Below, one piece after another: positions 5,224 through 16,803 of a stretch of DNA of 64,000 nucleotides (positions within the stretch are counted from its first letter, which is position 1; each line of letters opens with the position of its first letter). Location of the stretch: NCBI GenBank assembly GCA_029942545.1, contig GCA_029942545.1_4114.1. One strand, 5' to 3'. Made by a program: the position numbers and the translations under genes. The notes under the pieces were generated by a model. The model was not told the origin of the DNA and made no database searches. It saw only the letters and a program-made list of their open reading frames with translations. The DNA comes from a phage.

Positions 5224-5245
5224 TAGAATCCATTTAAAGTACTAT

Positions 5246-5274
5246 TTGACATTGCCCAGATAGTACTTTATAAT
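5246..5274 (+). promoter_or_regulatory. sigma70-type promoter (TTGACA-N17-TATAAT)
   Basis: -35 5246-5251, -10 5269-5274. Confidence 0.55.
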
Positions 5275-5322
5275 AGACTCTAACTTGTAGTACTAATTAA
5301 CTTAACTAATAGGATGTACACC

Positions 5323-5718
5323 ATGATTACTAAATTCTTCGCTACCCGTGAACAAGCTCGCATCGTTGCCCGTGAAGAAGGTGAAACATTTAAAGACATG
5401 GGCAAAGATGCACCGAAAGGACAACGCTGGGCGGTACAGTTCAAAGAGATCTCTGATATTGTGAATTCACCTGAGCCTGTACTTACAGCAGCAGAACTAA
5501 AGCAAGCTCAAGAACTGGCTGAAGTACTGAACGCTCAAGATGACTTTTTGAAAGGTTCTGATATTGAAGTTACAGTTAACGCAAATGCATGGACTCACGC
5601 GGATCACCTGGCAAACCTTAAGCGTCCAAGTGAACTGATTCGTAACCAGAAAGAGATCCGTCATGACCGTAAAGGAAACCGTGTAACAGTATACAGTAAA
5701 CGCCGCCAGGTTATCTAA
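5323..5718 (+). CDS. hypothetical protein (131 aa)
   Basis: AGGA 5311-5314 is 8 nt upstream of ATG 5323; track ATG 5314 sits too close to the RBS; alternative start 5314. Confidence 0.6.
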   Translation: MITKFFATREQARIVAREEGETFKDMGKDAPKGQRWAVQFKEISDIVNSPEPVLTAAELKQAQELAEVLNAQDDFLKGSDIEVTVNANAWTHADHLANLKRPSELIRNQKEIRHDRKGNRVTVYSKRRQVI

Positions 5719-5741
5719 TAACTTTGCAGTACTAACAACAC

Positions 5742-5766
5742 GGCGGGAACTATTCCCGCCTTTTTT
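5742..5766 (+). terminator. intrinsic terminator
   Basis: GGCGGGAA-CTA-TTCCCGCC followed by TTTTTT. Confidence 0.8.
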
Positions 5767-5780
5767 ATAGGATAAACAAA

Positions 5781-6035
5781 ATGATTAAGGTTCAACTATC
5801 AAACGATAATGTATTACGGGTACACTATAAAGCCCCACAGAGAATCATCACAAAGGCCGTACAGCTTGCTAATGAGTTTATTAATGGTAGTCTATTGCCT
5901 AGGAAGTTAAGCAACGGGAAACTACGTGTTATCGATGTAGACACTAACAATAGAATAGTGATCGAGAGTACTGGAAAAATTAATCTATATGAACACCAAC
6001 AATACAATAAAAAAATAAAACTAATATCACGTTGA
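5781..6035 (+). CDS. hypothetical protein (84 aa)
   Basis: ORF track; weak RBS. Confidence 0.45.
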   Translation: MIKVQLSNDNVLRVHYKAPQRIITKAVQLANEFINGSLLPRKLSNGKLRVIDVDTNNRIVIESTGKINLYEHQQYNKKIKLISR

Positions 6036-6060
6036 CAGTACTCAAATGTTTTAGTATTAT
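6032..6060 (+). promoter_or_regulatory. sigma70-type promoter (TTGACA-N17-TATTAT)
   Basis: -35 6032-6037, -10 6055-6060. Confidence 0.55.
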
Positions 6061-6093
6061 GTATCTATACCAACACAGAGAGAGAGAAACAAA

Positions 6094-6312
6094 ATGAAAT
6101 TATCTAAAATCGAAAAGAAAACTATTGATGAAGCAGTGAAGCACGGTTATACCTTTCGTAATGATTCACACTTCACTAGTTTTCAACAGGGAAACCGTAC
6201 CATCAAAAAACTCATTGATAAAGGTTTACTCACTAAGGTTGATAACGGGAACGGTGTAGAATATCAACCGACAGAAGACGCATTATCACTAAAGAAATAT
6301 TCTATTATCTAA
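6094..6312 (+). CDS. hypothetical protein (72 aa)
   Basis: ORF track; leader duplicated before the next gene. Confidence 0.55.
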   Translation: MKLSKIEKKTIDEAVKHGYTFRNDSHFTSFQQGNRTIKKLIDKGLLTKVDNGNGVEYQPTEDALSLKKYSII

Positions 6313-6341
6313 TTGACAGTACTCAAATGTTTTAGTACTAT
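6313..6341 (+). promoter_or_regulatory. sigma70-type promoter (TTGACA-N17-TACTAT), duplicate of 6032-6060
   Basis: same 17-nt spacer GTACTCAAATGTTTTAG as the upstream promoter. Confidence 0.5.
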
Positions 6342-6369
6342 GAATGCATACCAACACGGGGAAAACAAA

Positions 6370-6597
6370 ATGATTACTTTAGAAAAACGTATCAAAGAGA
6401 CTACCACGCTGGTGGAACTGTTAACCGTTCTTAAATGCCGGGTAACTCCATTCAGTACACCGGACTTTATCAACATGGTGGACGTTAACGGTCGCTATCG
6501 TATTGCGGTCGAACAAGGTACGGCAAAAGTATTCAGTACTAAAAATACGCGTGAAGTATTCCACGCAGTTCAAGTAAAAAAAAGTAGTTGCCATTGA
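6370..6597 (+). CDS. hypothetical protein (75 aa)
   Basis: ATG 6370 with leader CGGGGAAAACAAA; track start 6313 lies inside the promoter. Confidence 0.55.
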   Translation: MITLEKRIKETTTLVELLTVLKCRVTPFSTPDFINMVDVNGRYRIAVEQGTAKVFSTKNTREVFHAVQVKKSSCH

Positions 6598-6644
6598 TAG
6601 TAAAGTACTGTAATATAGTTTCATTAACTCAAGGAGTCAACACA

Positions 6645-7229
6645 ATGCGTAACTATACTAAATTCATCCGTTCACTTCATGCAATGGAAACCAACAAAGA
6701 GATCCTTTCAGCTTGTCGGTTAGCTGGACTGGAGATCGTCGGTGCGGGTTCTTCCCGTATTGTATTCGCTTTAAATGATCGGTTAGTGATTAAGGTCGCG
6801 AATTGTGATGCGGGTGTAGAACAAAATGAAACTGAATGTAAGGTATGGAATTTTTTAGATTATGACCGTCCGCACCTTAAACAGTTCTTTGCTAAAGTGC
6901 ATATGCATTTATGCGATCCTGATAATCTGTTTATTGTTATGGATCGTTTGAGTACTGCAAGCAAAGGCAGTGTAAAGCATGTAAACGCGTGCAATGAGTT
7001 AAAGTACAATATTAAACGTAACACTATTGAACGCCATCACCATTTCGCTGATGCTCTCAATCACGTTGATGATACATTATCCACACTAACGATAAGAGAT
7101 ATCAGAAAACAGAATATCGGCCAGGATCGCAACGGCTTGATTAAAGTACTTGATTACGGTTTAACCCGCAATATCTGGAATCAGTACTATAAAAAACGTG
7201 ATGTTAATGCGATAACTATAACACGATAA
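6645..7229 (+). CDS. protein-kinase-like protein (putative Ser/Thr kinase)
   Basis: Gly-rich loop IVGAGSSRIVF, VIKV lysine, catalytic-loop-like RDIRKQNIG, DYG in place of DFG; RBS AAGGAG before ATG 6645. Confidence 0.55.
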   Translation: MRNYTKFIRSLHAMETNKEILSACRLAGLEIVGAGSSRIVFALNDRLVIKVANCDAGVEQNETECKVWNFLDYDRPHLKQFFAKVHMHLCDPDNLFIVMDRLSTASKGSVKHVNACNELKYNIKRNTIERHHHFADALNHVDDTLSTLTIRDIRKQNIGQDRNGLIKVLDYGLTRNIWNQYYKKRDVNAITITR

Positions 7230-7237
7230 AAAAGATT

Positions 7238-7398
7238 AAAAAAGGGATTGACTCCAGTCAGTCCCTTTGCTATTATATATTCATTGAGAGATAACTCACT
7301 GACCCATAGGGTGCGGAAGTGTATCTATTATATAAGTATTCAGTACTGAAAACTATTTGATAAAAAGTACTTGCAAACTATCTCAATGAGCGTATAAT
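7238..7398 (+). repeat. intergenic cassette R, copy 4
   Basis: hairpin GGGATTGAC-TCCA-GTCAGTCCC 7244-7265; box ACCCATAGGGTGC 7302-7314; promoter TTGCAA-N16-TATAAT 7371-7398. Confidence 0.6.
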
Positions 7399-7453
7399 GT
7401 TTTATATCGAGAGGGGGAAATGGTTCTCCCTGGTACTAAAAGGAATCAAGACG

Positions 7454-7675
7454 ATGACTACTATGACCTGCGTTCACGCTTCAAATCTTCTGAATGATGC
7501 AGCATTTAAAGCAGGTGAAGAATATCAATGCTATCGGGATGAAAATAAAAAAGTTTTCGTCGTTGATGCTAACGGTTTCCATATTGAATTACAATCCGGC
7601 TTCACTGGTGTTGATGGTAAATCAGTATGGGGCGTACAGGATGATAACGGTACATATCATTTTAAACGTAATTAA
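7454..7675 (+). CDS. hypothetical protein (73 aa)
   Basis: ATG 7454 preceded by AAAGGAA; track start 7397 is upstream, before the leader hairpin. Confidence 0.55.
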   Translation: MTTMTCVHASNLLNDAAFKAGEEYQCYRDENKKVFVVDANGFHIELQSGFTGVDGKSVWGVQDDNGTYHFKRN

Positions 7676-7678
7676 GTA

Positions 7679-7706
7679 TTGACAAAGTATATCAGTACTG
7701 TATAAT
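7679..7706 (+). promoter_or_regulatory. sigma70-type promoter (TTGACA-N16-TATAAT)
   Basis: -35 7679-7684, -10 7701-7706; hairpin 7719-7737. Confidence 0.6.
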
Positions 7707-7759
7707 AGTTTACATCAAGGGGAGAATAGCTCTCCCCACCAATAAAAGGAAACAAAATT

Positions 7760-8032
7760 ATGTCCAGCTACTCCGCTACTATGATTATTAAAGATATGAA
7801 CGGTAATCCTACTTCTGCTGGTGGATCATTTGGTAACATTAACTTAGATGGTCGGTTATCAATTGAATCAGCCATCAATGCCGCGAAAGAAGTTTTTAAG
7901 AATGAATGTACTGTAAGCAAGCTGGATTATATGGGCTTCGCTATCGAGAAAACTAATCGTTTTGTGGACTACAAAAAACCACTGATGATTGATACTAACC
8001 TGAAAGCAAACGAAGTGGAATACTTATTATGA
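7760..8032 (+). CDS. hypothetical protein (90 aa)
   Basis: ORF track; RBS AAAGGAAA. Confidence 0.6.
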   Translation: MSSYSATMIIKDMNGNPTSAGGSFGNINLDGRLSIESAINAAKEVFKNECTVSKLDYMGFAIEKTNRFVDYKKPLMIDTNLKANEVEYLL

Positions 8033-8220
8033 CAGTAGAAGAAGTTAAAAAAGTACTGGCAGTACTACGCTATCATAATCATTGTAAGGTGAAGAATGAT
8101 CCTGATTATCTTGATTCATCGCTGGAAGAGGATACACTACAAGCAATAAGCCATATGCAAAAAATGCTTAAGCGTATGACCGAAAAGAACAGGCCGGACT
8201 ATATCGGAAATAAAATTTAA
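8029..8220 (+). CDS. hypothetical protein (63 aa)
   Basis: ATGA overlap with upstream gene. Confidence 0.5.
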   Translation: MTVEEVKKVLAVLRYHNHCKVKNDPDYLDSSLEEDTLQAISHMQKMLKRMTEKNRPDYIGNKI

Positions 8221-8227
8221 AAAGTAC

Positions 8228-8255
8228 TTGCATTGTAAGTAAAACAAAGTATAAT
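8228..8255 (+). promoter_or_regulatory. sigma70-type promoter (TTGCAT-N16-TATAAT)
   Basis: -35 8228-8233, -10 8250-8255. Confidence 0.55.
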
Positions 8256-8303
8256 GTTTTGCATAGGGGGAGATATCCTCCCCCACTAATAAGGAGTACT
8301 AAA

Positions 8304-8528
8304 ATGGCTAACTTTGATGAACTGATGCGGGAAGTAGCTACCCTGGCAGAAGAGAAGAAATCATTTGATTCTATCTATAACACCGCTTACAGTGATTCAG
8401 TACTGGCATGTACTCAGGATCAAAAAGATGAACTGATCGCCACCTATCATGAAGCATGGAAGTACTACCGCCAATGGGAGAAAGAAGAAAGCGAGTCTAC
8501 CATCAACGGCATCAATAATCTAATCTAA
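8304..8528 (+). CDS. hypothetical protein (74 aa)
   Basis: ATG 8304 with RBS AAGGAG; track start 8259 falls in the leader hairpin. Confidence 0.55.
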   Translation: MANFDELMREVATLAEEKKSFDSIYNTAYSDSVLACTQDQKDELIATYHEAWKYYRQWEKEESESTINGINNLI

Positions 8529-8602
8529 AGTTTTATTTCAGTACTATTGACAATGCGTGATAGTACTGATGTGATAACTTTACTAACTAAAGGGGAAACA
8601 TA

Positions 8603-8860
8603 ATGGAACAGTTTAAAACGTATCGGGTAAATCCAATCGCTACAGCCTACGTAGAAGACCATAAAACATTACCAGTACAGACACCAATCAAAGGCCGTAT
8701 CTATCGTGCTATGCAGTGGAATAACGCCTATAATGGCTATAAAGCGGTAGCGGCTGCAATGTACTTAGGGGATGGCGAATGGTTTGATCCAAATAATCCT
8801 GGTGCACTCGATAGTACTGAACAAATGACATGGGCCGACTATATCGAAGATATTTCATAA
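8603..8860 (+). CDS. hypothetical protein (85 aa)
   Basis: ORF track; RBS AAGGGGAAA. Confidence 0.6.
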   Translation: MEQFKTYRVNPIATAYVEDHKTLPVQTPIKGRIYRAMQWNNAYNGYKAVAAAMYLGDGEWFDPNNPGALDSTEQMTWADYIEDIS

Positions 8861-8867
8861 AAACTAT

Positions 8868-8895
8868 TTGACAGTACTACAAGATAATGTATAAT
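8868..8895 (+). promoter_or_regulatory. sigma70-type promoter (TTGACA-N16-TATAAT)
   Basis: -35 8868-8873, -10 8890-8895. Confidence 0.55.
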
Positions 8896-8948
8896 GTTTT
8901 ACATAGAGCGGGGGAATAGTTCTCCCGCACCTTTAGGAGTAAAACATT

Positions 8949-9149
8949 ATGTCAATCGCTAACGAATTGGTTGCAGTACTGAATGAAGCAAAAGCCAACT
9001 GCATCGATGTACAGATCAAAGAGCTTGGCAATGGCTTGATCGGCTGTACTTGTACAGTGCAAACGGCTACCGATTATCGGGAAGTGGAATCACTCGAATC
9101 ACTGGTACGGTATATTAAAATCCTGGTAGAAGATTGGAGAATCATCTAA
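8949..9149 (+). CDS. hypothetical protein (66 aa)
   Basis: ORF track; RBS TAGGAG. Confidence 0.55.
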   Translation: MSIANELVAVLNEAKANCIDVQIKELGNGLIGCTCTVQTATDYREVESLESLVRYIKILVEDWRII

Positions 9150-9162
9150 CAAAAAAGAATAA

Positions 9163-9352
9163 AAAAAAGGGATTGACTCCGGTCAGTCCCTTTGCTATTA
9201 TATACGCATAGACAAAAACTAGCCCACAGGGTGCAGAGAAGTATCTATAAGATAGTTAATAACGGTGAGTAACTATCTGCTGGTGGATGTAATGCCAGTA
9301 CTCAAAACTATTTCAAAAAAGTATTGACAAAGTATATCAGTACTGAGATAAT
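9163..9352 (+). repeat. intergenic cassette R, copy 5
   Basis: hairpin GGGATTGAC-TCCG-GTCAGTCCC 9169-9190; box AGCCCACAGGGTGCA 9221-9235; promoter TTGACA-N17-GATAAT 9324-9352. Confidence 0.6.
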
Positions 9353-9406
9353 GTATCTCGTAGGGCGGCAATAGTGCAGCCCACCTCCAAAAGAGCGAGA
9401 TATAAA

Positions 9407-9622
9407 ATGGCGTTAACCAAACAAGAAATTATCGACCGTATCAAAGAGTCAACTGGCTGGTATGTTGGGGACCGTTTAATTGTTAAAGTTCTCGATTATT
9501 CAAATAATCCTCTTGCACCGGAACCAGTGGCATACAAATTATCCTGGATATCTGCGTTTAGCGGTAAGCGTGAAAGATGTGTGTACTATCCGAACACAGT
9601 CGGGCTACAGTTCTGTAAATAA
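9407..9622 (+). CDS. hypothetical protein (71 aa)
   Basis: ATG 9407 after leader; track start 9374 lies in the leader hairpin. Confidence 0.55.
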   Translation: MALTKQEIIDRIKESTGWYVGDRLIVKVLDYSNNPLAPEPVAYKLSWISAFSGKRERCVYYPNTVGLQFCK

Positions 9623-9640
9623 ATTTTAATAGAAAAAGTA

Positions 9641-9669
9641 TTGACAAAGTATATCAGTACTGCAATAAT
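9641..9669 (+). promoter_or_regulatory. sigma70-type promoter (TTGACA-N17-AATAAT), duplicate of 9324-9352
   Basis: promoter and leader (GTAGGGCGGCAAT...) duplicated for two consecutive genes. Confidence 0.5.
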
Positions 9670-9722
9670 GTATCTCGTAGGGCGGCAATGGTGCGACGGC
9701 CCACAAAGTTAGGAGATTCACC

Positions 9723-10049
9723 ATGAGTACTTCAATCGCTATCGTTAAAGCTTTCATCCGTACCAATTTCGACCGCATTACTGTTGATGGTAATGATCGG
9801 GAAGTAGAATACTCTTTCATTGTTGCACAAACCGCAAACGGTGCACGCTATATCTTAAACGATAGTGAAGCTAACCACTACTTCTATAATAAAGGATTAC
9901 ACTACATCCCTAGCGAAGTAGTCTACAGTAAGATGAATAAGCTGGTAGACAAGATTAACGCTAAAGGTACTATCGATTTACAGTACTGGACCGAAACCGA
10001 TCCAGAATACGGATCACATCGTTACCTGAATCCAGGAATTAAAATGTAA
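9723..10049 (+). CDS. hypothetical protein (108 aa)
   Basis: ORF track; RBS AGGAG. Confidence 0.6.
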   Translation: MSTSIAIVKAFIRTNFDRITVDGNDREVEYSFIVAQTANGARYILNDSEANHYFYNKGLHYIPSEVVYSKMNKLVDKINAKGTIDLQYWTETDPEYGSHRYLNPGIKM

Positions 10050-10056
10050 AAAGTAC

Positions 10057-10084
10057 TTGCATTGTACTTAGAATCAAGTATAAT
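10057..10084 (+). promoter_or_regulatory. sigma70-type promoter (TTGCAT-N16-TATAAT)
   Basis: -35 10057-10062, -10 10079-10084; leader hairpin follows. Confidence 0.55.
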
Positions 10085-10138
10085 GTTTTACATAGAGAGG
10101 GGGAAATGGTTCTCCCTCCTAAATTAAGGAGTTTTATC

Positions 10139-10540
10139 ATGACCTTCTCAATCACTTCCTTCGCTGACGTTTTAGTACTGGCTCGGACTTTTGGTAAAGA
10201 TGCACTGGAGTACGCTGTAAGTAATGGTACTCTCCAACCGGAACAATGCCGCATCATTGGAAACTGCAAACGTTGGGCGGTATCCAATACTATTGCACTA
10301 GAAAACTTCAACGATGGTAACAATGAGTATTCAGTTGATGCAGTATTCGAAGCCGTTGATCTTGGCGGTATCTATAACACTAACCTAAATGATGTGCGTA
10401 TCGTTCGCACGGGGTTCGGTGCTTATGATGTATCTATCCGTGAAGCTATGAACACCGGATACATTAGTAAGGACTTACTTGCTCACATCATGCAGCTATG
10501 GACGGAACGTAACGAAGCACGCACTATCTTAGGACTATAA
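10139..10540 (+). CDS. hypothetical protein (133 aa)
   Basis: ATG 10139 with RBS AAGGAG; track start 10106 is inside the leader hairpin. Confidence 0.6.
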   Translation: MTFSITSFADVLVLARTFGKDALEYAVSNGTLQPEQCRIIGNCKRWAVSNTIALENFNDGNNEYSVDAVFEAVDLGGIYNTNLNDVRIVRTGFGAYDVSIREAMNTGYISKDLLAHIMQLWTERNEARTILGL

Positions 10541-10564
10541 GCATTACACATCACCAAACATCAT

Positions 10565-10584
10565 AGGCCGCTCTCTAGCGGCCT
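10565..10584 (+). terminator. hairpin, possible terminator or 3' stabiliser
   Basis: AGGCCGCT-CTCT-AGCGGCCT perfect 8-bp stem; weak U tract. Confidence 0.4.
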
Positions 10585-10608
10585 TAACTATATCAGGAGG
10601 GCATACAT

Positions 10609-10818
10609 ATGTTCTATACAGTATACAGCGTTCTAGGTACGATTGCTGGCGTACATGATAATGTCAGTGATGCTATGCGTACAGTACTGCAACAGGTTCC
10701 ACTAAAGCCTAAGACCATTAAGCAGATGACAGCACGACTAACCAGGGCGACGGCTGGCGTGGAAGTATGGCAGGACTATGGGGATACACAGATAATCGTA
10801 AGCGTAACGAAGGATTAA
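10609..10818 (+). CDS. hypothetical protein (69 aa)
   Basis: ORF track; RBS AGGAGG. Confidence 0.55.
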   Translation: MFYTVYSVLGTIAGVHDNVSDAMRTVLQQVPLKPKTIKQMTARLTRATAGVEVWQDYGDTQIIVSVTKD

Positions 10819-11067
10819 TGCGTAAAAGGATTTAGTACTGATTCAGAAAAAAGTCAAGGCGTTTTTAAAATTATGCGTTAAAAAAATGCATAGGTAATCC
10901 CTTGACTTTTTTGAAATAAAAGGGATTGGACTATGGCAAAATGCGTAGGGGGCTAAAGGGCGGGTAACCTTAGCGACTTCGATAAAGGGGTATTACGAAT
11001 AAAATGTTATTGACTTTTTATATGAATCGTATAAAATATGATCGATAATAATTTTAAGGGAGTCCCT
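10817..11067 (+). promoter_or_regulatory. non-coding junction with iteron-like ATGCGT(A/T) repeats and a 13-bp inverted repeat
   Basis: ATGCGTA at 10818, 10941, 11068 and ATGCGTT at 10873; AAAAAAGTCAAGG 10847-10859 is the reverse complement of 10900-10912. Confidence 0.4.
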
Positions 11068-11265
11068 ATGCGTATTTTAACTAAAGAACAGCACCACGAA
11101 AGACTTATCAATAACATGGCTATGATAATGTATAAGTCCCATGACCGTGGTATTGCCTATAAGCGTGAATTAATTATGGCACTATTCATTGGAACTAACT
11201 TTCAGGAAAGGTATGTCAACGATTGGATTTGGTATTTAATTGAAGATATAACGAGTAAACTATGA
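11068..11265 (+). CDS. family A small paralog (LGTNYQ-motif protein)
   Basis: motif FIGTNFQERYV; RBS AAGGGA; first member of the tandem array. Confidence 0.65.
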   Translation: MRILTKEQHHERLINNMAMIMYKSHDRGIAYKRELIMALFIGTNFQERYVNDWIWYLIEDITSKL

Positions 11266-11462
11266 AAATGCGTATTTTAAATAAAGAAGAATATCAATCA
11301 CTGTTACGTAAAAACTTCACAAAGATTTATAATACAGACACACACGTAGAACGAATGGAGTTATACCTTTTGATTACATTGGGAACAAACTATCAGGGTA
11401 GATGGGTGTGGCAATATATGGATACATTGAAAAATAAAATATTGTCCACGAGGAAACAATGA
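11262..11462 (+). CDS. family A small paralog
   Basis: motif LGTNYQGRWV; ATGA overlap. Confidence 0.65.
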   Translation: MKMRILNKEEYQSLLRKNFTKIYNTDTHVERMELYLLITLGTNYQGRWVWQYMDTLKNKILSTRKQ

Positions 11463-11668
11463 AAACTATAACACGAACCCAATCATACGGTCTTATCTTG
11501 AAATACATGGACTTAATGGTGGATATCAGCAAAGACCTGCCTAAAACTGAAATTGAAGTTGCAAGAGCAGAGATCCGCATGTTGGCTGTACTGAACACAA
11601 ACCATCAGGAAGATTATGTTGAAGAATGGATTCGATTTTTAATTCAAGATATAAAGAGTAAATTATGA
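11459..11668 (+). CDS. family A small paralog
   Basis: motif LNTNHQEDYV; ATGA overlap. Confidence 0.65.
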   Translation: MKTITRTQSYGLILKYMDLMVDISKDLPKTEIEVARAEIRMLAVLNTNHQEDYVEEWIRFLIQDIKSKL

Positions 11669-11880
11669 TTATTATAGAAAACTCATATCAATATACTGAA
11701 CGCATCGCTGCCAGACAACTTGAAATCCTCATAATATACGAAGAGACTTCTGATTTAAACTTAGCCGAGGTATTGGAAAATGAAATACTTTTGGGTGCAT
11801 TCTTGGGAACAGACTATCAGGAGTATTATGAGGAAAAGTATTTGTCATCTCTTGAGAAATACATCAGGAGCAAATTATGA
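11665..11880 (+). CDS. family A small paralog
   Basis: motif LGTDYQEYYE; ATGA overlap. Confidence 0.65.
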   Translation: MIIIENSYQYTERIAARQLEILIIYEETSDLNLAEVLENEILLGAFLGTDYQEYYEEKYLSSLEKYIRSKL

Positions 11881-12089
11881 TTATATTAACACCTGAAGAA
11901 TATAAGAAACGTTTTAATTCTGTCCAGACTGAAATATTACTTATATACCTTTCAAATGCAGACCTTAACTTATCAAGGGCAATGGAGAAGGATTTACTTA
12001 TGGGTGCATTTTTGGATACAGACTTTCAGGTGTATTATGTAGGGGAATACTTAATTGCACTCCAGAATTACATTAGGAGTAAACTATGA
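11877..12089 (+). CDS. family A small paralog
   Basis: motif LDTDFQVYYV; ATGA overlap. Confidence 0.65.
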   Translation: MIILTPEEYKKRFNSVQTEILLIYLSNADLNLSRAMEKDLLMGAFLDTDFQVYYVGEYLIALQNYIRSKL

Positions 12090-12304
12090 AACATTTAAGT
12101 AATATTGAGAAGATGAGAATTATCATTGATGCATTAAACAAATACGATACCCTTTTACAAATAAAAGGTTTAACTCGATTGGAACACAAGATAAACACCA
12201 CCGATGTACGCATGTTGGCTGTACTGGGGACGAACTTTCAGGAAGAGTATGTTGTTGCACACATAGTTGCCCTCACTGATCTAATAAGGGACAAATGTAA
12301 ATGA
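12086..12304 (+). CDS. family A small paralog
   Basis: motif LGTNFQEEYV; ATGA overlap. Confidence 0.65.
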   Translation: MKHLSNIEKMRIIIDALNKYDTLLQIKGLTRLEHKINTTDVRMLAVLGTNFQEEYVVAHIVALTDLIRDKCK

Positions 12305-12558
12305 AACACTTAACTGATGATGAATTTGAAACTATAATTCGTAAACTAACCCCCATCACAAGGATAGTCTACGGTGACCCCAGCCTTACATGGAACCAAA
12401 TGCGAGCTAAAGTTAATGAGCTATGGTTGCTGTACTTTATGGGGACTCAATATCAAGATAAGTTTTGCACAGAATATATCGAACAATTAACGAATGTTAT
12501 ACAGGATAAACTAGATGATTATTTGCTCACAAAACATGAAGACTTTATCAGGAGTTGA
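12301..12558 (+). CDS. family A small paralog
   Basis: motif MGTQYQDKF; ATGA overlap. Confidence 0.65.
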   Translation: MKHLTDDEFETIIRKLTPITRIVYGDPSLTWNQMRAKVNELWLLYFMGTQYQDKFCTEYIEQLTNVIQDKLDDYLLTKHEDFIRS

Positions 12559-12787
12559 GTATCAAACTGCCCTATTCTCTTTAATCCATACCCTTAGAAA
12601 AAACAATGCCTTACATGGTGCACCTGAAGTGGATGTTATCAACGGTGAACTTTATCTTATGAAATTCATTGGAACAAACTATCAAGATCTGTTCATTCAA
12701 CGATACTTATCCGCATTAAGAAACCAAATCCAATATAAAACCATCAAGGCCAAAAAAGAATGGAATAAACAATGCGACACAGACTAA
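12536..12787 (+). CDS. family A small paralog
   Basis: motif IGTNYQDLF; start uncertain (12515 or 12536), overlaps upstream gene. Confidence 0.55.
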   Translation: MKTLSGVEYQTALFSLIHTLRKNNALHGAPEVDVINGELYLMKFIGTNYQDLFIQRYLSALRNQIQYKTIKAKKEWNKQCDTD

Positions 12788-13020
12788 ATCACAAAATGTA
12801 TTGTAAACTATTGCAGACACTGGCACAGAAACACTATGACACGGTATCTGAAATATTACCCTATGATATCATGCGTTTACTTCACTGTGAGGCCGAGATG
12901 CTTGTACTGATGACAGGCACTGATAAAACAGCAATCGCCAGATCGATAGAGCAATATATTGATGCACACTGCCAACACATGAGAACCGAAATCTGGAGGA
13001 AAGAGAATGATAATTCTTAA
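12772..13020 (+). CDS. family A small paralog (divergent)
   Basis: same size and position in array; motif degenerate (MTGTDKTAIA). Confidence 0.55.
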   Translation: MRHRLNHKMYCKLLQTLAQKHYDTVSEILPYDIMRLLHCEAEMLVLMTGTDKTAIARSIEQYIDAHCQHMRTEIWRKENDNS

Positions 13021-13222
13021 TGAGTATCAGTATCATTGGAGGTTACAAACTATCAAATCAAAAGTGTATAGTATTGTGTTAAACAAATCTATTGCACAAG
13101 AGGACAAATGTGTTATAATAGCTGAAATGAAGTTGGGTGTATTCGTAGGGACAAACTATCAAAACATCTACACTGACGTATTATTAAGTTCCTTACGTAA
13201 CAAGGTGGTATCCAAAATATGA
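13007..13222 (+). CDS. family A small paralog
   Basis: motif VGTNYQNIY. Confidence 0.65.
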   Translation: MIILNEYQYHWRLQTIKSKVYSIVLNKSIAQEDKCVIIAEMKLGVFVGTNYQNIYTDVLLSSLRNKVVSKI

Positions 13223-13437
13223 GAAATTTACAAGGCTTTGAATACATCAGACTCCTGAAAACATGTGGAAGGAGAAGGAGAATGATATCAAGCGATAAGA
13301 GCATCCAAGCTAACCTTAAGCACGCACTAGTAACTGAACTCTATGTAGGTGCACTCTTAGGCACAAACTATCAACAAATGTATGTAGAACTATGGATTGA
13401 CGCTCTACAGAAAGAGGTTAAAAGTAAATGCAAATGA
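13219..13437 (+). CDS. family A small paralog
   Basis: motif LGTNYQQMYV; ATGA overlap. Confidence 0.65.
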   Translation: MRNLQGFEYIRLLKTCGRRRRMISSDKSIQANLKHALVTELYVGALLGTNYQQMYVELWIDALQKEVKSKCK

Positions 13438-13646
13438 TTAATTTAAGTAAAGACGAATTTTATGTTATACTGGCGAAAACTTATCCAGCACGTAAGGCCG
13501 TTTATGATAGTCACATTATTGAACCCTCAAAGAAGTTGATTTTAGTAAATGAGATAAAGATGCTTTCAGTCTTAGGAACAAACTATCAAGAGAATGCTGT
13601 ACTGATGTTAATTGATGCCCTCCAGCGAGAGGTTAAACGTAAATGA
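13428..13646 (+). CDS. family A small paralog
   Basis: motif LGTNYQENAV. Confidence 0.65.
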   Translation: MQMINLSKDEFYVILAKTYPARKAVYDSHIIEPSKKLILVNEIKMLSVLGTNYQENAVLMLIDALQREVKRK

Positions 13647-13873
13647 AAATGATTAATTTAACTTACCATGAATATCAAAAACGTTTAAATGCATCCAGAG
13701 ATATAAGGATTCAAATATTCAATAACAAAAGATTGAAGCCTGATATCAGGAAAATCAAAATCATAGAAGCCGTGTTGTGCAACTTCCTAGGGACTAACTA
13801 TCAGGAAGGTAAGGTAGAAAACTATCTTATAGAACTCATGAATAGTATTGAAAATAAATGTAAGGGTAATTAA
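13643..13873 (+). CDS. family A small paralog
   Basis: motif LGTNYQEGKV; ATGA overlap. Confidence 0.65.
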   Translation: MKMINLTYHEYQKRLNASRDIRIQIFNNKRLKPDIRKIKIIEAVLCNFLGTNYQEGKVENYLIELMNSIENKCKGN

Positions 13874-13874
13874 C

Positions 13875-14114
13875 ATGAAAATGATTAAATTATCTCAAGC
13901 AAAATATAAAGAACGCCTGGTGAAAATTGCACCTGGACTTAATGAAATCCATCACGGAGAAGTCATTAAACACGGAAATAAGATGATTAAGAAACTTGAG
14001 TTAAAGGTGGGTGCATTCATAGGAACAAACTATCAGGAGTATTATGTAGATGAATACATAATCGCACTTAAGAGATACATTGGAAGAAAACTATATCTAC
14101 AAACTAAAGAATAG
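13875..14114 (+). CDS. family A small paralog
   Basis: motif IGTNYQEYYV; ATG 13875 chosen by homology (MKMIKL); track start 13848 is upstream. Confidence 0.6.
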   Translation: MKMIKLSQAKYKERLVKIAPGLNEIHHGEVIKHGNKMIKKLELKVGAFIGTNYQEYYVDEYIIALKRYIGRKLYLQTKE

Positions 14115-14137
14115 TATTGAAAATAAATGTGAGGTTG

Positions 14138-14407
14138 ATGAACATGCAAATGATCAATTTAAGTAAAGATGAATATACCGAGCGTATGACAAAAATTACG
14201 CACAAACGTAATACAATCTATCACAACCCAGAAATTCAACACAGTAAGAAAATGATTATGATGCGTGAGTTAAAGATGGGTGTATTCTTAGGAACAAACT
14301 ATCAAGATACAGAAGTAAATCGCTTAATCGCGGAGTTACTACTGGAAATCAGAGGTAAGCTGTACTTTCATCAAATGACCCAACCACTGAGGTGTACTAA
14401 GAAATGA
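14138..14407 (+). CDS. family A small paralog
   Basis: motif LGTNYQDTEV; GAGGT RBS 8 nt before ATG 14138 (alternative 14144); track start 14117 is TTG. Confidence 0.6.
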   Translation: MNMQMINLSKDEYTERMTKITHKRNTIYHNPEIQHSKKMIMMRELKMGVFLGTNYQDTEVNRLIAELLLEIRGKLYFHQMTQPLRCTKK

Positions 14408-14619
14408 TCAACATCACATTGCAAGAAAGATTCATCCGAATCAACTATGCAATTACCAAATTAGATGCTACTATAGGATTCCAAAGTCTACCATACAAAA
14501 CCAGATTGTTATTAGAGTGTGAAGCTAAGTTGGGTGTACTGTTAGGGACGCAACACCAACAACGATATGTGGAAATCTGGATTGACCTTTTAACCCAAAA
14601 TATATATGAGAGAATGTAA
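14404..14619 (+). CDS. family A small paralog
   Basis: motif LGTQHQQRYV; ATGA overlap. Confidence 0.65.
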   Translation: MINITLQERFIRINYAITKLDATIGFQSLPYKTRLLLECEAKLGVLLGTQHQQRYVEIWIDLLTQNIYERM

Positions 14620-14850
14620 ATGCAAAATGAAATGATATACTTAACGAATGAAGAATTTCAAGAGAAGATGTTAAAAACCAAAAACATTACTCTTAAGTTC
14701 GTTCCAAATCAATCAATATCTGAAGTATCTGCAAATGTATTGTTTCAGAAGCTACCATACGTTCTTGGAACTGATAAACAAGAATTTATGGTTCAAAATA
14801 TGATTGAACATCTTATAATGAGTATTAAGGAAAAAGTTAATGCAAAATGA
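14620..14850 (+). CDS. family A small paralog
   Basis: motif LGTDKQEFMV. Confidence 0.65.
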   Translation: MQNEMIYLTNEEFQEKMLKTKNITLKFVPNQSISEVSANVLFQKLPYVLGTDKQEFMVQNMIEHLIMSIKEKVNAK

Positions 14851-15094
14851 AATGATATACTTAACCTATAATGAATACGTCGAGAGATTAGTTCGTGCCA
14901 AGAGATATACCAATAAACGTCCAATTGACCTAAACCAAACCCCAGCAGAAAGGAGTGCAGAAGTATTATTCCAATCACTACCATATCTTCTGGGAACTGA
15001 TAGACAAGAGGAATATGTTGCACGTATGATTAGATATCTTAAAATCACTATTAAGGAAAAAGTAAATGCAAATGAAATACTTAACAGACGATGA
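14840..15094 (+). CDS. family A small paralog
   Basis: motif LGTDRQEEYV; N-terminus MQNEMIYLT duplicated from the previous gene. Confidence 0.65.
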   Translation: MQNEMIYLTYNEYVERLVRAKRYTNKRPIDLNQTPAERSAEVLFQSLPYLLGTDRQEEYVARMIRYLKITIKEKVNANEILNRR

Positions 15095-15317
15095 GTTAAA
15101 AGAACGACTAATTAAATCAAGAAAACATACAAATCAACTTCCAAACGACACAAACAAGTCTCCAGCGGAAAGGAGTGCAGAAGTTTTATACATTCAACTC
15201 ATGTACTTTCTTGGCACTGACAGACAAGAGTATTACATTGAAAGTATGCTTCGATATCTTAAATTCTCTATAAAGGAAAAGATACATGATCAAGTATTTA
15301 AAAATCCTAACAGTTAA
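15066..15317 (+). CDS. family A small paralog
   Basis: motif LGTDRQEYYI. Confidence 0.65.
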   Translation: MQMKYLTDDELKERLIKSRKHTNQLPNDTNKSPAERSAEVLYIQLMYFLGTDRQEYYIESMLRYLKFSIKEKIHDQVFKNPNS

Positions 15318-15528
15318 TGAATATCATAAGATTGTAATGAAAACTAATAGTGATTACGCTAAAAAATCAAACCCAAAGTACATACTGGAACACACATTTG
15401 AAGAACGTCAATTAGCTTTAGTTGAAGCAAAACTTCTTGCACTATTAGGAACAAACTATCAGGAAGAATACAATAGAAAACTAATATACCTTTTAACTAA
15501 ACATATAAGAAAAAGAAAAAATGCATGA
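15286..15528 (+). CDS. family A small paralog
   Basis: motif LGTNYQEEYN. Confidence 0.65.
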   Translation: MIKYLKILTVNEYHKIVMKTNSDYAKKSNPKYILEHTFEERQLALVEAKLLALLGTNYQEEYNRKLIYLLTKHIRKRKNA

Positions 15529-15755
15529 AACACTTGACAGATGATGAACATGGGCTTATAGTAATGGATGTAATCAACATCGAATACAAAAAGTTGATAC
15601 GCTATCGTTGTTATGAAGATAAGCAACTCGTTCTAGCAGAACAGAAGTTGTTTCGACTCTTAAACACAAACTTCCAAGCACAATACGAAGAATCGTATAT
15701 GTACCTTTTGGCGAGGAAAGCAAAAAGAGATTATGAAAATTTTAAGCAAAGGTGA
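15525..15755 (+). CDS. family A small paralog
   Basis: motif LNTNFQAQYE; ATGA overlap. Confidence 0.65.
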   Translation: MKHLTDDEHGLIVMDVINIEYKKLIRYRCYEDKQLVLAEQKLFRLLNTNFQAQYEESYMYLLARKAKRDYENFKQR

Positions 15756-15954
15756 TTCAGTAATATTACTTATAGAGAGTTCAAGTAAATTCTTAAACAT
15801 AACACTGTCTGATATAGATGAAGATGATAAAGAAGTACTGAGAGCAGATTTAAGAGTACTGTTACATATCGGAACAAACCTACAAGAAGAATATGTAGAG
15901 TGCTACATCAATGAACTTAAAGAATCAGTACTGAGAAAATGCAAATGCAAATGA
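15733..15954 (+). CDS. family A small paralog
   Basis: motif IGTNLQEEYV. Confidence 0.65.
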   Translation: MKILSKGDSVILLIESSSKFLNITLSDIDEDDKEVLRADLRVLLHIGTNLQEEYVECYINELKESVLRKCKCK

Positions 15955-16172
15955 AAATCATTACCGATGTAGAATACCTAACAATCATAAATGGACTGTT
16001 TTTGAAGCTCTTCGTCATTAACACATCAGATATACCAGATATGGATAAAATTATTAAGAGAAATGAAGTCTATGTTCTAGCTACCCTTGGAACGAACTAT
16101 CAAGAACACGACATTAAAGATTATATTAATACACTTAAACGAGCTATTGAACTAAAATGCCAAAACCACTAG
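15939..16172 (+). CDS. family A small paralog
   Basis: motif LGTNYQEHDI. Confidence 0.65.
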   Translation: MQMQMKIITDVEYLTIINGLFLKLFVINTSDIPDMDKIIKRNEVYVLATLGTNYQEHDIKDYINTLKRAIELKCQNH

Positions 16173-16372
16173 GAACAGCAGAATACATTGAACTCATGGG
16201 ATTACACTTCTCATCCTTTCAGAAACTTATGCGAGAATCAAAGAATGATTTAGAATATACCATCAGAGGTTCCGATTTAAGAATGCTTCTCACCCTAGAC
16301 ACAGATTCCCAAGAGCGATTTGTCAATGAGCATATTAGAGCACTTTTAATGGAAATTAAAAGTAAACTATGA
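16157..16372 (+). CDS. family A small paralog
   Basis: motif LDTDSQERFV. Confidence 0.65.
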   Translation: MPKPLGTAEYIELMGLHFSSFQKLMRESKNDLEYTIRGSDLRMLLTLDTDSQERFVNEHIRALLMEIKSKL

Positions 16373-16584
16373 AGATAATATCAAACCAAGAGTACTTGGC
16401 ACTATTCAGGAAGAATAATCACAAATATATGGCACTTGATTCAAGAACTGATATAAGTGAACTTGAAAAAAATCTTTTGCGTTCAGATATGATAGTACTG
16501 ACACTCTTAGGAACACAGCATCAAGAGAGAACTGTTAATTCATACATAGGTATTCTTATACAGATAGTACAGGAAAAGATATGA
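16369..16584 (+). CDS. family A small paralog
   Basis: motif LGTQHQERTV; ATGA overlap. Confidence 0.65.
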   Translation: MKIISNQEYLALFRKNNHKYMALDSRTDISELEKNLLRSDMIVLTLLGTQHQERTVNSYIGILIQIVQEKI

Positions 16585-16802
16585 GAATCATAACACAACA
16601 AGATATTCTTAAGTTCACAAGGGTTCATGCATCTGAATTTGATGCTATATTATCAAAAAGTTACAACAACCCTTATACAGAAGATGTACACTACAATGAA
16701 TTATGGATGTATATACTTTTAGGTACAAATAAGCAAGAGCAAGCCGTACAGAAGTATTTGACAGCTTTACGTGATGCTACAGCTAATGGAGTATGTGTTT
16801 AA
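16581..16802 (+). CDS. family A small paralog
   Basis: motif LGTNKQEQAV; ATGA overlap. Confidence 0.65.
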   Translation: MRIITQQDILKFTRVHASEFDAILSKSYNNPYTEDVHYNELWMYILLGTNKQEQAVQKYLTALRDATANGVCV

Positions 16803-16803
16803 T

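What the first reader, a model, noticed from the sequence alone, without database searches (positions are those of the whole stretch)
10817..11067. Iteron-like repeats and a 13-bp inverted repeat at the early-region / family A boundary
In the ~250 bp gap ATGCGTA/ATGCGTT occurs four times (10818, 10873, 10941, 11068), AAAAGGATT/AAAAGGGATT-like strings repeat, and AAAAAAGTCAAGG (10847-10859) is the exact reverse complement of CCTTGACTTTTTT (10900-10912). This is the only sizeable intergenic region before a 6 kb promoter-less array, so it probably holds the switch controlling array expression, or possibly an origin.
Basis: seen in the sequence. Interest (0 to 1): 0.5.

Follow-up and report, generated by a model that had tools for sequence, protein, structure and literature searches.

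The report
Inner edge of phage terminal repeat
The 250-bp gap is where the roughly 21-kb repeat found at both ends of this giant E. coli phage's chromosome stops, so it holds the conserved site where the DNA end is cut, plus an ordinary host-type promoter for the gene array that follows; it is not a replication origin.

Summary
The 13-bp inverted repeat is non-random. The "iterons" are weak: three non-coding copies of a 6-mer plus a start codon.

The window comes from an Asteriusvirus (PBECO4/121Q-like jumbo coliphage). Six deposited linear genomes end 152 nt after the homologue of ORF 10609-10818. [quoted passage not shown]

- **The gap is the inner junction** of the ~21-kb direct terminal repeat (DTR).
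- **The cut lies in CT^TAGC (10969-10974).** Besides TTGACT and A-runs, this is the only 6-mer shared by the equivalent gaps of five divergent lineages, including a Xanthomonas phage.
- **Both DTR boundaries carry RCTA^ in inverted orientation.**
- **The DTR-side 152 bp are more conserved than the flanking genes.** They hold a hairpin, GGTAATCCCTTGACTTTT, GACTATG and the cut at fixed spacing in three genus-level lineages. I infer a terminus-formation signal, with the hairpin possibly also a terminator.
- **The unique-side 97 bp carry a sigma-70-type promoter (11010-11037) and a ribosome-binding site** for a 27-gene paralogue array.

Nothing supports an origin. "Switch" is only partly supported.

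The parts
10609..10818 (+). Last gene of the terminal repeat (69 aa, unknown function)
   Evidence: ORF list. No Pfam family above cutoff. Homologues at 33-98% identity in Escherichia, Salmonella and Klebsiella jumbo phages. In Asteriusvirus, the fENko/Munch group and EJP2 it is the last gene before the repeat boundary.
10819..10970 (.). Last 152 bp of the direct terminal repeat (non-coding); in the right-hand copy these are the final bases of the virion DNA
   Evidence: Six deposited linear genomes end at the homologous base. The fEgEco12 DTR of 20,993 bp ends 152 nt after the ORF stop. Divergence among six relatives is 2.4%, against 3.6-5.8% for the neighbouring ORFs.
10847..10912 (.).
   Evidence: I2. 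RNA fold of 10840-10920 gives -23.6 kcal/mol, z = -5.0. It arises in 0.16% of shuffles. There is one two-sided change (G.U to U-A) in the extended stem of the M-J lineage. All six lineages have a hairpin here, with different sequences.
10893..10910 (+). Conserved block GGTAATCCCTTGACTTTT; TTGACT starts 69 nt before the cut
   Evidence: Identical 18-mer in Xanthomonas phage XbC2 and XbC2-like metagenome contigs, at the same 69-nt distance from the cut. The distance is 70 nt in fENko/Munch. The block is degenerate in EJP2 and displaced in A4.
10929..10935 (+). Conserved block GACTATG, 42 nt before the cut
   Evidence: Same 42-nt distance in the window, fENko/Munch and XbC2. The distance is 43 nt in EJP2, which has a 1-nt insertion.
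10969..10974 (.). CT^TAGC: the terminal-repeat boundary and inferred cleavage site (cut between 10970 and 10971). On the bottom strand it reads GCTA^AG.
   Evidence: Record ends of M-J, E9.1, CRJP21, BF17, G17 and WPEC3. The PhageTerm-defined end in fENko-Kae01 is at the homologous CT^TAGC. It is the only G/C-containing 6-mer other than TTGACT shared by five divergent gaps, and is single-copy in each; a shared 6-mer with 3 or more G/C arises in 0.03% of shuffles. It is the only CTTAGC in 22 kb of XbC2.
10971..11067 (+). Unique-side part of the gap: promoter and 5' leader of the array
   Evidence: 19% divergence among relatives, including a 74-bp deletion in SD-15_S21.
11010..11037 (+). Sigma-70-type promoter TTGACT-16-TAAAAT (third TTGACTTTTT copy is its -35 element)
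   Evidence: 10 of 12 matches. Relatives carry TTGACT-16-TATTAT. EJP2 has TTGACT-16-TATAAT, fENko/Munch TTGACA-17-TATACT, and A4 TGCTATAAT. Promoter activity was not tested.
11056..11062 (+). Shine-Dalgarno AAGGGAG for the first array gene
   Evidence: Sequence. It lies 5 nt upstream of the ATG at 11068.
11068..17046 (+). The first gene is 11068-11265.
   Evidence: All 27 fall in one BLASTP cluster. No Pfam match for the five array members scanned. There is no enrichment of promoter-like sites inside the array.

Best explanation
The gap is the inner (right-hand) junction between the phage's ~21-kb direct terminal repeat (DTR) and the unique part of its chromosome.

**Shown**
- In related genomes the right physical end of the virion DNA is the base homologous to window 10970, inside an invariant CT^TAGC.
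- Reading from outside the repeat inwards, both DTR boundaries carry RCTA^ immediately before the 5' end of the mature DNA. The two boundaries are in inverted orientation.
- The 152 bp on the repeat side are more conserved than the adjacent genes.

**Inferred**
- This module is the recognition-and-cleavage signal used when concatemeric DNA is processed into unit genomes.
- The enzyme (terminase or an associated nuclease) cleaves 3' of RCTA on opposite strands at the two boundaries, about 21 kb apart.
- The repeat is then duplicated by strand-displacement synthesis, as in the classical T7 model.
- The hairpin may also terminate transcription of the last early gene.
- Just outside the repeat, a host sigma-70 promoter (11010-11037) and a Shine-Dalgarno sequence start transcription and translation of the 27-gene paralogue array.
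- The promoter's -35 element supplies the third copy of TTGACTTTTT.
- The ATGCGTW 'iterons' are a start codon, a stop-codon overlap and hairpin arms. They are not a repeat family.
For: **Identity of the window.** It is 88-95% identical to Asteriusvirus genomes.

**Position of the DTR end.**
- The annotated DTR of vB_Ec-M-J (1..21525) ends in the homologous gap.
- The right ends of M-J, E9.1, CRJP21 and BF17, and the reversed starts of G17 and WPEC3, all stop at ...GGGCGGGTAACCT. This is 152 nt after the 69-aa ORF and equals window 10970.
- fEgEco12 has a DTR of 20,993 bp by PhageTerm, confirmed by restriction digests (PMC13070987). Its ORF is at 20632-20838, which gives the same 152 nt.

**A distant relative agrees.** In Klebsiella phage fENko-Kae01 (PhageTerm DTR 19,736 bp; PMC11218385) the DTR ends at the homologous CT^TAGC. 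A TTGACA-17-TATACT promoter follows.

**Left boundaries.**
- Asteriusvirus: CCACTA^AGTAGG.
- fENko: CCGCTA^TATCTT.
- The XbC2 record ends ...CCACTA and starts TATCTG.
- Munch starts at the same base as fENko.
- Right boundaries in reverse complement read GCTA^AG in all lineages.

**Conservation of the cut and its module.**
- Alignment-free comparison: CTTAGC and TTGACT are the only non-A-run 6-mers shared by five divergent gaps.
- Fixed spacing of 69/70 and 42 nt in Escherichia, Klebsiella/Salmonella and Xanthomonas phages.
- Conservation profile: 2.4% (DTR side) against 3.6-5.8% (ORFs) and 19% (unique side).

**Other parts.**
- Hairpin.
- Promoter.
- The DTR is packed with consensus sigma-70 promoters, ten of them 12/12 matches. 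This fits an early, host-transcribed region.
Against: - The ends were not measured for this genome. They are transferred by homology; identity is 100% over the last 100 nt before the cut in most relatives.
- Some depositors may have oriented their records on earlier ones rather than mapping ends independently. Clearly independent determinations are fEgEco12, M-J, fENko, G17 (from coverage) and probably Munch and XbC2.
- The RCTA^ motif is short. CTTAGC/GCTAAG occurs 11 times in the window, so it cannot be sufficient alone.
- Similarity between left and right boundaries rests on 4-7 nt. I estimate p of about 0.01-0.03 after allowing for register.
- Phage A4 keeps the cut site but not the -69/-42 spacing.
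- No protein has been shown to bind any block.
- Nicking plus strand displacement is a model, not an observation.
- The hairpin lacks a standard terminator shape. It has a 40-nt interior and the scan did not call it. The equivalent hairpins of A4 and fENko have no U-tract.
Confidence: 0.72

Rival explanations
1. The inverted repeat is simply an intrinsic, possibly bidirectional, transcription terminator ending the last early transcription unit. The high conservation of the 152 bp reflects homogenisation of the repeat rather than a packaging signal.
For: - An A6 tract, a 13-bp stem and a U6 tract. The fold is stable (-23.6 kcal/mol, z = -5).
- Every lineage has a hairpin at this position with a different sequence, as terminators typically do.
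- The EJP2 and XbC2 hairpins are followed by U-rich runs.
- Early genes in the DTR often carry their own promoter-terminator cassettes.
Against: - It was not called by the terminator scan. The loop is 40 nt against the usual 3-8, and there are few G-C pairs.
- The A4 and fENko hairpins lack a U-tract.
- It does not explain the fixed-spacing blocks -69 and -42 or the invariant CTTAGC downstream of the hairpin.
- It does not explain why this non-coding DNA is less divergent than neighbouring coding DNA within the same repeat.
- It is compatible with the best explanation as a second role.
Confidence: 0.3
2. The gap is a regulatory switch (promoter plus operator) controlling the paralogue array, with the TTGACTTTTT copies and the inverted repeat as operator sites.
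For: - Promoter at 11010-37 and a Shine-Dalgarno sequence in front of the array.
- Three TTGACTTTTT copies unique to this gap, one of them the -35 element.
- A promoter at the same place in distant relatives.
- No strong promoter in the first 4.5 kb of the array.
Against: - The two upstream copies lie 108-160 nt from the promoter, on the other side of the chromosome-end site. In the right-hand DTR copy they exist with no promoter or array beside them.
- Their spacing is conserved relative to the cut, not to the promoter.
- The promoter segment is the least conserved part and is deleted in SD-15_S21, which keeps the array.
- No repressor-like gene is adjacent.
Confidence: 0.15
3. The gap is a T5-like injection-stop or first-step-transfer signal. 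DNA entry pauses at the inner end of the repeat until early proteins encoded in the repeat are made.
For: - Architecture parallels T5. There is a long terminal repeat full of small genes with host-type promoters.
- A repeat- and palindrome-rich non-coding stretch straddles the inner end of the repeat. T5 repeat region 3 overruns the LTR end by 270 bp (bioRxiv 10.1101/866236).
Against: - No DnaA boxes in 10500-11400. The T5 region carries eight.
- The region is 0.25 kb, not 1.2-1.7 kb.
- Two-step injection has never been reported for this group; searches found nothing.
- A1/A2 homologues were not looked for.
Confidence: 0.07
4. The gap is a replication origin with iterons.
For: Clustered short repeats and an A/T-rich stretch. 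ATGCGT occurs 6 times in 10675-11268.
Against: - The repeat unit is only 6-7 nt and spacing is irregular.
- One copy is a start codon and one overlaps a stop codon.
- The 10873 copy is not conserved.
- Three non-coding copies arise in 10.7% of shuffles.
- No DnaA boxes.
- No GC-skew inflection.
- No initiator gene nearby.
Confidence: 0.04

Closest known systems
Annotated direct terminal repeats of Asteriusvirus and related jumbo phages (vB_Ec-M-J OQ718158.1; fEgEco12 PP777464.1; fENko-Kae01 OR228459.1)
   Same: Same genomic position. The repeat ends 152 nt (145 nt in fENko) after the homologue of ORF 10609-10818, at CT^TAGC. The repeat is ~20-21.5 kb and full of small early-type genes.
   Different: The records and papers give only the coordinates and length of the repeat. 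In the papers I could read I found no description of the conserved cut-site motif, the inverted RCTA^ at both boundaries, or the fixed-spacing blocks.
12-bp inverted repeats bracketing the long terminal repeats of Twort-like (Kayvirus) staphylococcal phages
   Same: Short inverted sequences sit at the two junctions between the terminal repeat and the non-redundant DNA: TAAGTACCTGGG / CCCAGGTACTTA (PMC7596081). The repeat also encodes early host-takeover genes (PMC11598898).
   Different: Here the inverted element is only 4-7 nt (GYCRCTA^AG in Asteriusvirus, RCTA^ across genera). There is no sequence similarity to the Twort-like repeat. The hosts and phage lineages are unrelated.
Phage T5 left-terminal-repeat inner end (repeat region 3 / injection stop signal)
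   Same: A long terminal repeat with host-promoter-driven pre-early genes. A non-coding, repeat- and palindrome-rich region straddles the repeat's inner boundary and is more conserved than neighbouring genes.
   Different: T5's region is 1.2-1.7 kb with paired DnaA boxes and many repeat families. This gap is 249 bp with no DnaA boxes. No evidence exists for two-step injection.
T7-type terminal-repeat formation (site-specific cleavage at concatemer junctions with duplication of the repeat); from my own knowledge of the classical Watson / White-Richardson model
   Same: Fixed ends and direct repeats. The model predicts cleavage on opposite strands at the two repeat boundaries, which matches the inverted orientation of RCTA^ found here.
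   Different: The T7 repeat is 160 bp, not 21 kb. There is no sequence similarity. Nicking was not demonstrated here.

Membership tests
Boundary of a long direct terminal repeat (fixed-end, DTR-type phage chromosome) | Sequence up to the point is present at both ends of the linear virion DNA, and the record or virion ends exactly there | tested here: met
   Six relatives' linear records end at the base homologous to 10970. The internal copy in M-J continues into the array. This is transferred to the window by homology; the last 100 nt are identical in most relatives.
Boundary of a long direct terminal repeat (fixed-end, DTR-type phage chromosome) | Ends determined experimentally (read-start pile-up, restriction fragments) | tested here: met
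   For relatives only. fEgEco12 was mapped by PhageTerm plus restriction digests (PMC13070987). fENko-Kae01 was mapped by PhageTerm. G17 was inferred from coverage. No reads of the window's own phage are available.
Terminase recognition/cleavage signal (pac/cos-like) | Cleavage position conserved in sequence across diverged relatives | tested here: met
   CT^TAGC is invariant in five lineages while its surroundings diverge. RCTA^ is present at the left boundaries.
Terminase recognition/cleavage signal (pac/cos-like) | Binding of the small terminase subunit or nuclease to nearby repeats, and cleavage in vitro | not testable with these tools
   Only conserved blocks at fixed spacing can be offered.
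Iteron-type replication origin | Three or more direct repeats of about 17-22 bp with regular, helical-phase spacing | tested here: not met
   The unit is 6-7 nt. Spacing is 55, 68 and 127 nt. One copy is a start codon, and one is not conserved.
Iteron-type replication origin | DnaA boxes, an adjacent initiator gene, or a skew inflection | tested here: not met
   No TTWTNCACA in 10500-11400. Neighbouring ORFs have no family match. Cumulative GC skew is monotonic.
Sigma-70 promoter | -35 and -10 hexamers with a 16-18 nt spacer, upstream of a gene | tested here: met
   TTGACT-16-TAAAAT at 11010-11037, 31 nt before the ATG. Equivalent sites exist in relatives. Activity was not tested. The count of such sites in 9-19 kb equals the shuffle expectation, so the match alone is weak evidence.
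Intrinsic (Rho-independent) terminator | G+C-rich stem, 3-8 nt loop, followed by a U-tract | tested here: inconclusive
   There is a 13-bp stem with U6, but a 40-nt interior containing a nested hairpin. The scan did not call it. A U-tract is present in 3 of 5 lineages.
Twort-like LTR-bracketing inverted repeats | 12-bp perfect inverted repeats at the two extremities of the non-redundant DNA | tested here: not met
   Only GYCRCTA^AG (7 of 9 identical) within Asteriusvirus and RCTA^ across genera. The logic is analogous, but this is not the same element.
T5 injection stop signal | Kilobase-scale non-coding region with paired DnaA boxes near the inner end of the repeat | tested here: not met
   The gap is 249 bp and has no DnaA boxes. 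Compare.
Known RNA families (Rfam) | Match at the gathering score | tested here: not met
   The only hit is bglG-cis-reg at 25.5 bits against a gathering score of 80, E = 0.16. No tRNA was found.

The most novel reading that the evidence does not exclude
The conserved module (hairpin, GGTAATCCCTTGACTTTT, 27 nt, GACTATG, 35 nt, CT^TAGC) may define the chromosome ends of a wide group of RaK2-like jumbo phages, from Escherichia to Xanthomonas hosts. It would act together with an inverted RCTA^ site about 20 kb away at the other repeat boundary. The ends would be made by site-specific nicking of opposite strands, followed by copying of the ~20-kb repeat. That would be the first sequence-level account of how such very long terminal repeats are generated.
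Probability: 0.35. Interest if true: 0.65.

Novelty: new member of a known kind. Interest (0 to 1): 0.5.

Why it matters
Most deposited genomes of this phage group are arbitrarily opened circles. According to a 2026 survey, only about five have mapped ends.

A conserved, recognisable cut-site module would have several practical uses:
- The true ends and the ~20-kb repeat could be placed on any related genome from sequence alone.
- It would give a defined substrate for studying how a jumbo phage's packaging machinery makes very long terminal repeats.
- It separates host-transcribed early genes inside the repeat from the first unique-region operon, which helps in reading the infection programme.

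For the scan itself, it shows that a 'regulatory-looking' gap can be a structural landmark of the chromosome.

Tried and rejected
- **Rfam search of 9-13 kb.** Only a sub-threshold bglG-cis-reg hit. Rejected.
- **tRNA scan of the whole window.** Nothing found.
- **Iteron/origin reading.** Rejected on repeat length, spacing, conservation, DnaA boxes and skew.
- **The first two TTGACT copies as promoters.** No acceptable -10 element at 16-18 nt on either strand (my reading).
- **IMG/VR search with the 69-aa ORF and with the left-end 21-mer.** It found only phage 121Q.
- **Exact 18-mer scan of metagenomes.** About 35 hits, most of them chance or unrelated. Chance alone predicts roughly this number for an 18-mer in a collection of this size. 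Only XbC2-like and Asteriusvirus contigs were homologous.
- **Pfam on the 69-aa ORF, two upstream ORFs and five array members.** Nothing above cutoff.
- **Literature on transcription of this genus.** None found.
- **The extra base in vB_Ec-M-J at both junctions** (CCT-T-TAGC and CACTA-A-AGTAGG). I first read this as covariation. The added bases equal the last and first base of the repeat, and M-J-like metagenome contigs lack the extra T. It is more likely an off-by-one joining artefact in that record.
- **BAU.Micro_ELP-22.** Its record ends 24 nt after the ORF rather than 152. I treated this as a differently trimmed record.
Full report
**1. What is in the sequence**

The gap runs from 10819, just after the stop codon of a 69-aa ORF (10609-10818), to 11067. 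The mechanical ORF list starts the next gene at 11038. A Shine-Dalgarno sequence, AAGGGAG (11056-11062), points instead to the ATG at 11068, giving MRILTKEQ....

- The 13-bp inverted repeat is exact. A perfect repeat of that length arises in 0.16% of dinucleotide shuffles of the gap.
- ATGCGT occurs four times in 259 nt, which is unusual taken whole.
- One of those copies is the start codon plus Arg codon of the first array gene. The same string opens the second gene at 11268. Another copy overlaps the upstream stop codon.
- The three non-coding copies are matched by 10.7% of shuffles.
- Spacing is irregular.
- The 10873 copy is not conserved in one lineage.

The repeat that really stands out is TTGACTTTTT. 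It has three copies in the whole 64 kb on both strands. All three lie in this gap: two are the arms of the inverted repeat and one is at 11010.

**2. Where the window comes from and what the gap is**

The region is 88-95% identical to Asteriusvirus genomes, the PBECO4/121Q-like jumbo coliphages of about 350 kb.

In vB_Ec-M-J the depositors annotated direct terminal repeats spanning 1..21525. That end falls in the homologous gap.

I fetched the ends of the records that carry both repeat copies.
- M-J, E9.1, CRJP21 and BF17 all end at ...GGGCGGGTAACCT, 152 nt after the homologue of the 69-aa ORF.
- G17 and WPEC3, which are deposited in reverse, start at the same base.
- That base is window 10970.

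For fEgEco12, PhageTerm gave a 20,993-bp repeat, and restriction digests confirmed the linear map (PMC13070987). Its ORF homologue lies at 20632-20838, which again puts the repeat end 152 nt after the stop codon.

So the 'early region / family A boundary' is the inner junction of the terminal repeat. In the right-hand copy, 10819-10970 are the last bases of the virion DNA.

The part of the repeat in the window (1-10970) behaves as an early, host-transcribed region.
- It carries ten perfect TTGACA-16/17-TATAAT promoters and many near-perfect ones (61 promoter-like sites found against 38.8 +/- 8 in shuffles).
- It has repeated promoter-terminator cassettes.
- This resembles the terminal repeats of T5, SPO1 and phage K (and my own knowledge for SPO1).

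**3. The cut site**

Written from outside the repeat inwards, the boundaries read as follows.

| Lineage | Left boundary | Right boundary (bottom strand) |
|---|---|---|
| Asteriusvirus | ...ATATGCCACTA^AGTAGGCAG | ...GAAGTCGCTA^AGGTTACCC |
| Klebsiella phage fENko-Kae01 | ...CCTTCCGCTA^TATCTTC | ...GGGTGGCTA^AGGCATG |

fENko-Kae01 is a distant relative whose 19,736-bp repeat was mapped by PhageTerm; its boundaries come.

Three further observations agree.
- Salmonella phage Munch starts at the same base as fENko.
- The Xanthomonas phage XbC2 record (genus Mimasvirus) ends ...CCCCCTTCCACTA and starts TATCTG. It was therefore opened at the homologous left cut.
- Phage A4 has ...CCCACTA^AGTAGG. 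EJP2, by homology, has ...TTGCACTA^TATCTT.

Thus RCTA immediately precedes the 5' end of the mature DNA at both ends in every lineage examined, in inverted orientation.

At the right boundary I aligned the gaps of five lineages: the window, A4, EJP2, Munch/fENko and XbC2. The surrounding sequence is largely scrambled, yet CTTAGC is invariant.

An alignment-free comparison gives the same answer. Apart from A-runs, the only 6-mers shared by all five gaps are CTTAGC and TTGACT. CTTAGC is single-copy in each, 144-164 nt after the stop codon. A shared 6-mer with three or more G/C bases arises in 0.03% of shuffles. In XbC2 it is the only CTTAGC in 22 kb.

The motif is too short to act alone. CTTAGC/GCTAAG occurs 11 times in the window.

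**4. The module on the repeat side**

The distance from TTGACT (inside GGTAATCCCTTGACTTTT, 10893-10910) to the cut is:
- 69 nt in the window;
- 69 nt in XbC2 and XbC2-like metagenome contigs;
- 70 nt in fENko/Munch.

The distance from GACTATG (10929-10935) to the cut is 42 nt in all three groups, and 43 nt in EJP2, which has a 1-nt insertion. The sequence between these blocks varies.

Phage A4 keeps the G-rich stretch and the cut but not this spacing.

Upstream of these blocks every lineage has a hairpin, but with a different sequence.
- Window: the 13-bp repeat with a nested inner hairpin at 10871-10893 (-23.6 kcal/mol, z = -5).
- A4: AATTGAGTCAA / TTGACTCAATT.
- EJP2: AAGTACTG / CAGTACTT.
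- fENko: ACTCATTTTT / AAAAATGAGT.
- XbC2: AAAAGTTAAGC / GCTTGACTTTT.

In the M-J lineage one G.U pair of the extended stem has become U-A through changes on both sides.

Among six close relatives the 152 bp diverge by 2.4%. The flanking ORFs diverge by 3.6-5.8% and the 97 bp beyond the cut by 19%. Non-coding DNA that is better conserved than its neighbouring genes, with conserved blocks held at fixed distances from a conserved cut, is what a recognition signal for end formation looks like. That is an inference; no binding or cleavage was observed.

The hairpin may also act as a terminator. It has an A-tract, a stem and a U-tract. It does not, however, fit the usual shape and was not called by the scan. 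Two lineages lack a U-tract.

**5. The unique side**

TTGACT-16-TAAAAT (11010-11037) and the Shine-Dalgarno sequence precede the first of 27 tandem paralogues (11068-17046). These are 65-96 aa and share an LGTNYQE motif. No Pfam match was found for the five members scanned.

Relatives carry equivalent promoters:
- TTGACT-16-TATTAT in most close relatives;
- TTGACT-16-TATAAT in EJP2;
- TTGACA-17-TATACT in fENko/Munch;
- TGCTATAAT in A4.

A promoter just outside the repeat is therefore a conserved feature. It is dispensable in at least one lineage: Salmonella phage SD-15_S21 has lost 74 bp including it and keeps the array.

The array is therefore not promoter-less. Nothing indicates a regulated switch.

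**6. How it most likely works**

*Shown:* the position of the chromosome end, the conserved cut motif at both boundaries in inverted orientation, the conserved spacing of the blocks, and the conservation profile.

*Inferred:*
- During packaging, the concatemer is recognised through the blocks on the repeat side.
- It is cleaved 3' of RCTA on opposite strands at the two boundaries, about 21 kb apart.
- The repeat between them is then copied by strand displacement, so that each unit genome receives a full copy. This is the classical model for T7-type ends.
- Host RNA polymerase transcribes the repeat's early genes.
- The hairpin may stop the last of these transcripts.
- The promoter at 11010 restarts transcription into the array.

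**7. Comparison with known systems**

The repeat itself is already annotated in relatives. What I did not find described is the conserved signal.

- The closest precedent for inverted motifs bracketing a long repeat is the 12-bp pair of Twort-like staphylococcal phages (PMC7596081). It is analogous in logic but unrelated in sequence and much longer.
- T5 has a repeat- and palindrome-rich conserved non-coding region straddling its repeat's inner end, linked to injection arrest. This gap has none of its DnaA boxes and is far smaller.

I therefore file the feature as a new, undescribed example of a known kind: a terminal-repeat boundary and end-formation signal. It is not an origin or a switch.

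**8. Caveats**

- The ends are transferred from relatives.
- Some depositors may have copied record orientation from earlier entries.
- The cut motif is short.
- Similarity between left and right boundaries is significant only at roughly the 1-3% level by my estimate. The stronger evidence is conservation across genera.
- A4 departs from the spacing rule.
- The extra base at both junctions of the M-J record is probably an editing artefact.

Noticed in passing
window 1-64000; deserts at 10835-15833 and 18056-25625: The palindrome AGTACT occurs 216 times, against about 22 expected from base composition. It is scattered through coding and non-coding DNA with no flanking consensus. It also sits in the spacer of the early promoters (..AGTACTG-TATAAT). 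It is absent from the first ~4.8 kb of the paralogue array (the desert ends at 15833; the array runs to 17046) and from a second 7.5-kb stretch. The last copy before the first desert is at 10834, inside the gap. CAGTACTG also lies 8-20 nt before the left cut in all lineages. Unexplained.
   Followed up: partly
window 404-441, 4099-4136, 7241-7278, 9166-9203: There are four copies of a ~38-nt cassette, AAAGGGATTGACTCCGGTCAGTCCCTTTGCTATTATAT; the copy at 404 is a diverged variant (AAAGTGGTTGACTTCGGTCAGCCATTTT...). In it a 12-bp terminator-like hairpin overlaps a TTGACT-17-TATTAT promoter. The gap's AAAGGGATTG at 10919 matches the first 10 nt of the cassette.
   Followed up: partly
window 979-1050, 3372-3445, 4816-4890, 7679-7750, 8868-8940: Many of the ten perfect TTGACA-16/17-TATAAT early promoters share a near-identical spacer (..TAGTACTG) and a conserved leader, TATAATAGTTTACAT. 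This is followed by a hairpin such as GGGGAGAA-N-TTCTCCCC just before the ribosome-binding site. It suggests a shared 5'-leader element in early transcripts.
   Followed up: no
L009 1686-1752 (vB_Ec-M-J, about 185-250 nt inside the left end of the repeat); also L023, L029, L030. Outside the window.: A ~65-nt element, GTACTCCATCCTAAATC..GATCCTAAAAATTTTGGAGTAC, lies near the left end of the repeat. It has 8-bp inverted arms. It is conserved from Escherichia through Salmonella and Klebsiella to the Xanthomonas phage XbC2, and is duplicated in some of them.
   Followed up: partly
L021 (Salmonella phage SD-15_S21), homologue of window 10990-11063: A 74-bp deletion removes the promoter in front of the paralogue array while keeping the cut site, the Shine-Dalgarno region and the array.
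   Followed up: partly
L001 12971-12973 and L009 1499-1501 (vB_Ec-M-J): This record has one extra base at both repeat junctions: CCT-T-TAGC and CACTA-A-AGTAGG. Each extra base equals the adjacent terminal base of the repeat. M-J-like metagenome contigs lack the extra T. This is probably an off-by-one joining artefact.
   Followed up: partly
L004 (BAU.Micro_ELP-22 right end): This record ends 24 nt after the 69-aa ORF instead of 152 nt. It disagrees with the other six double-repeat records. The repeat in this record was probably delimited differently.
   Followed up: no
window 11068-17046: There are 27 tandem paralogues of 65-96 aa with a conserved ..LGTNYQE.YV.. core. No Pfam family matches the five members scanned. 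The genes overlap or abut throughout. In XbC2, a different array of ~200-aa genes follows the equivalent junction.
   Followed up: partly
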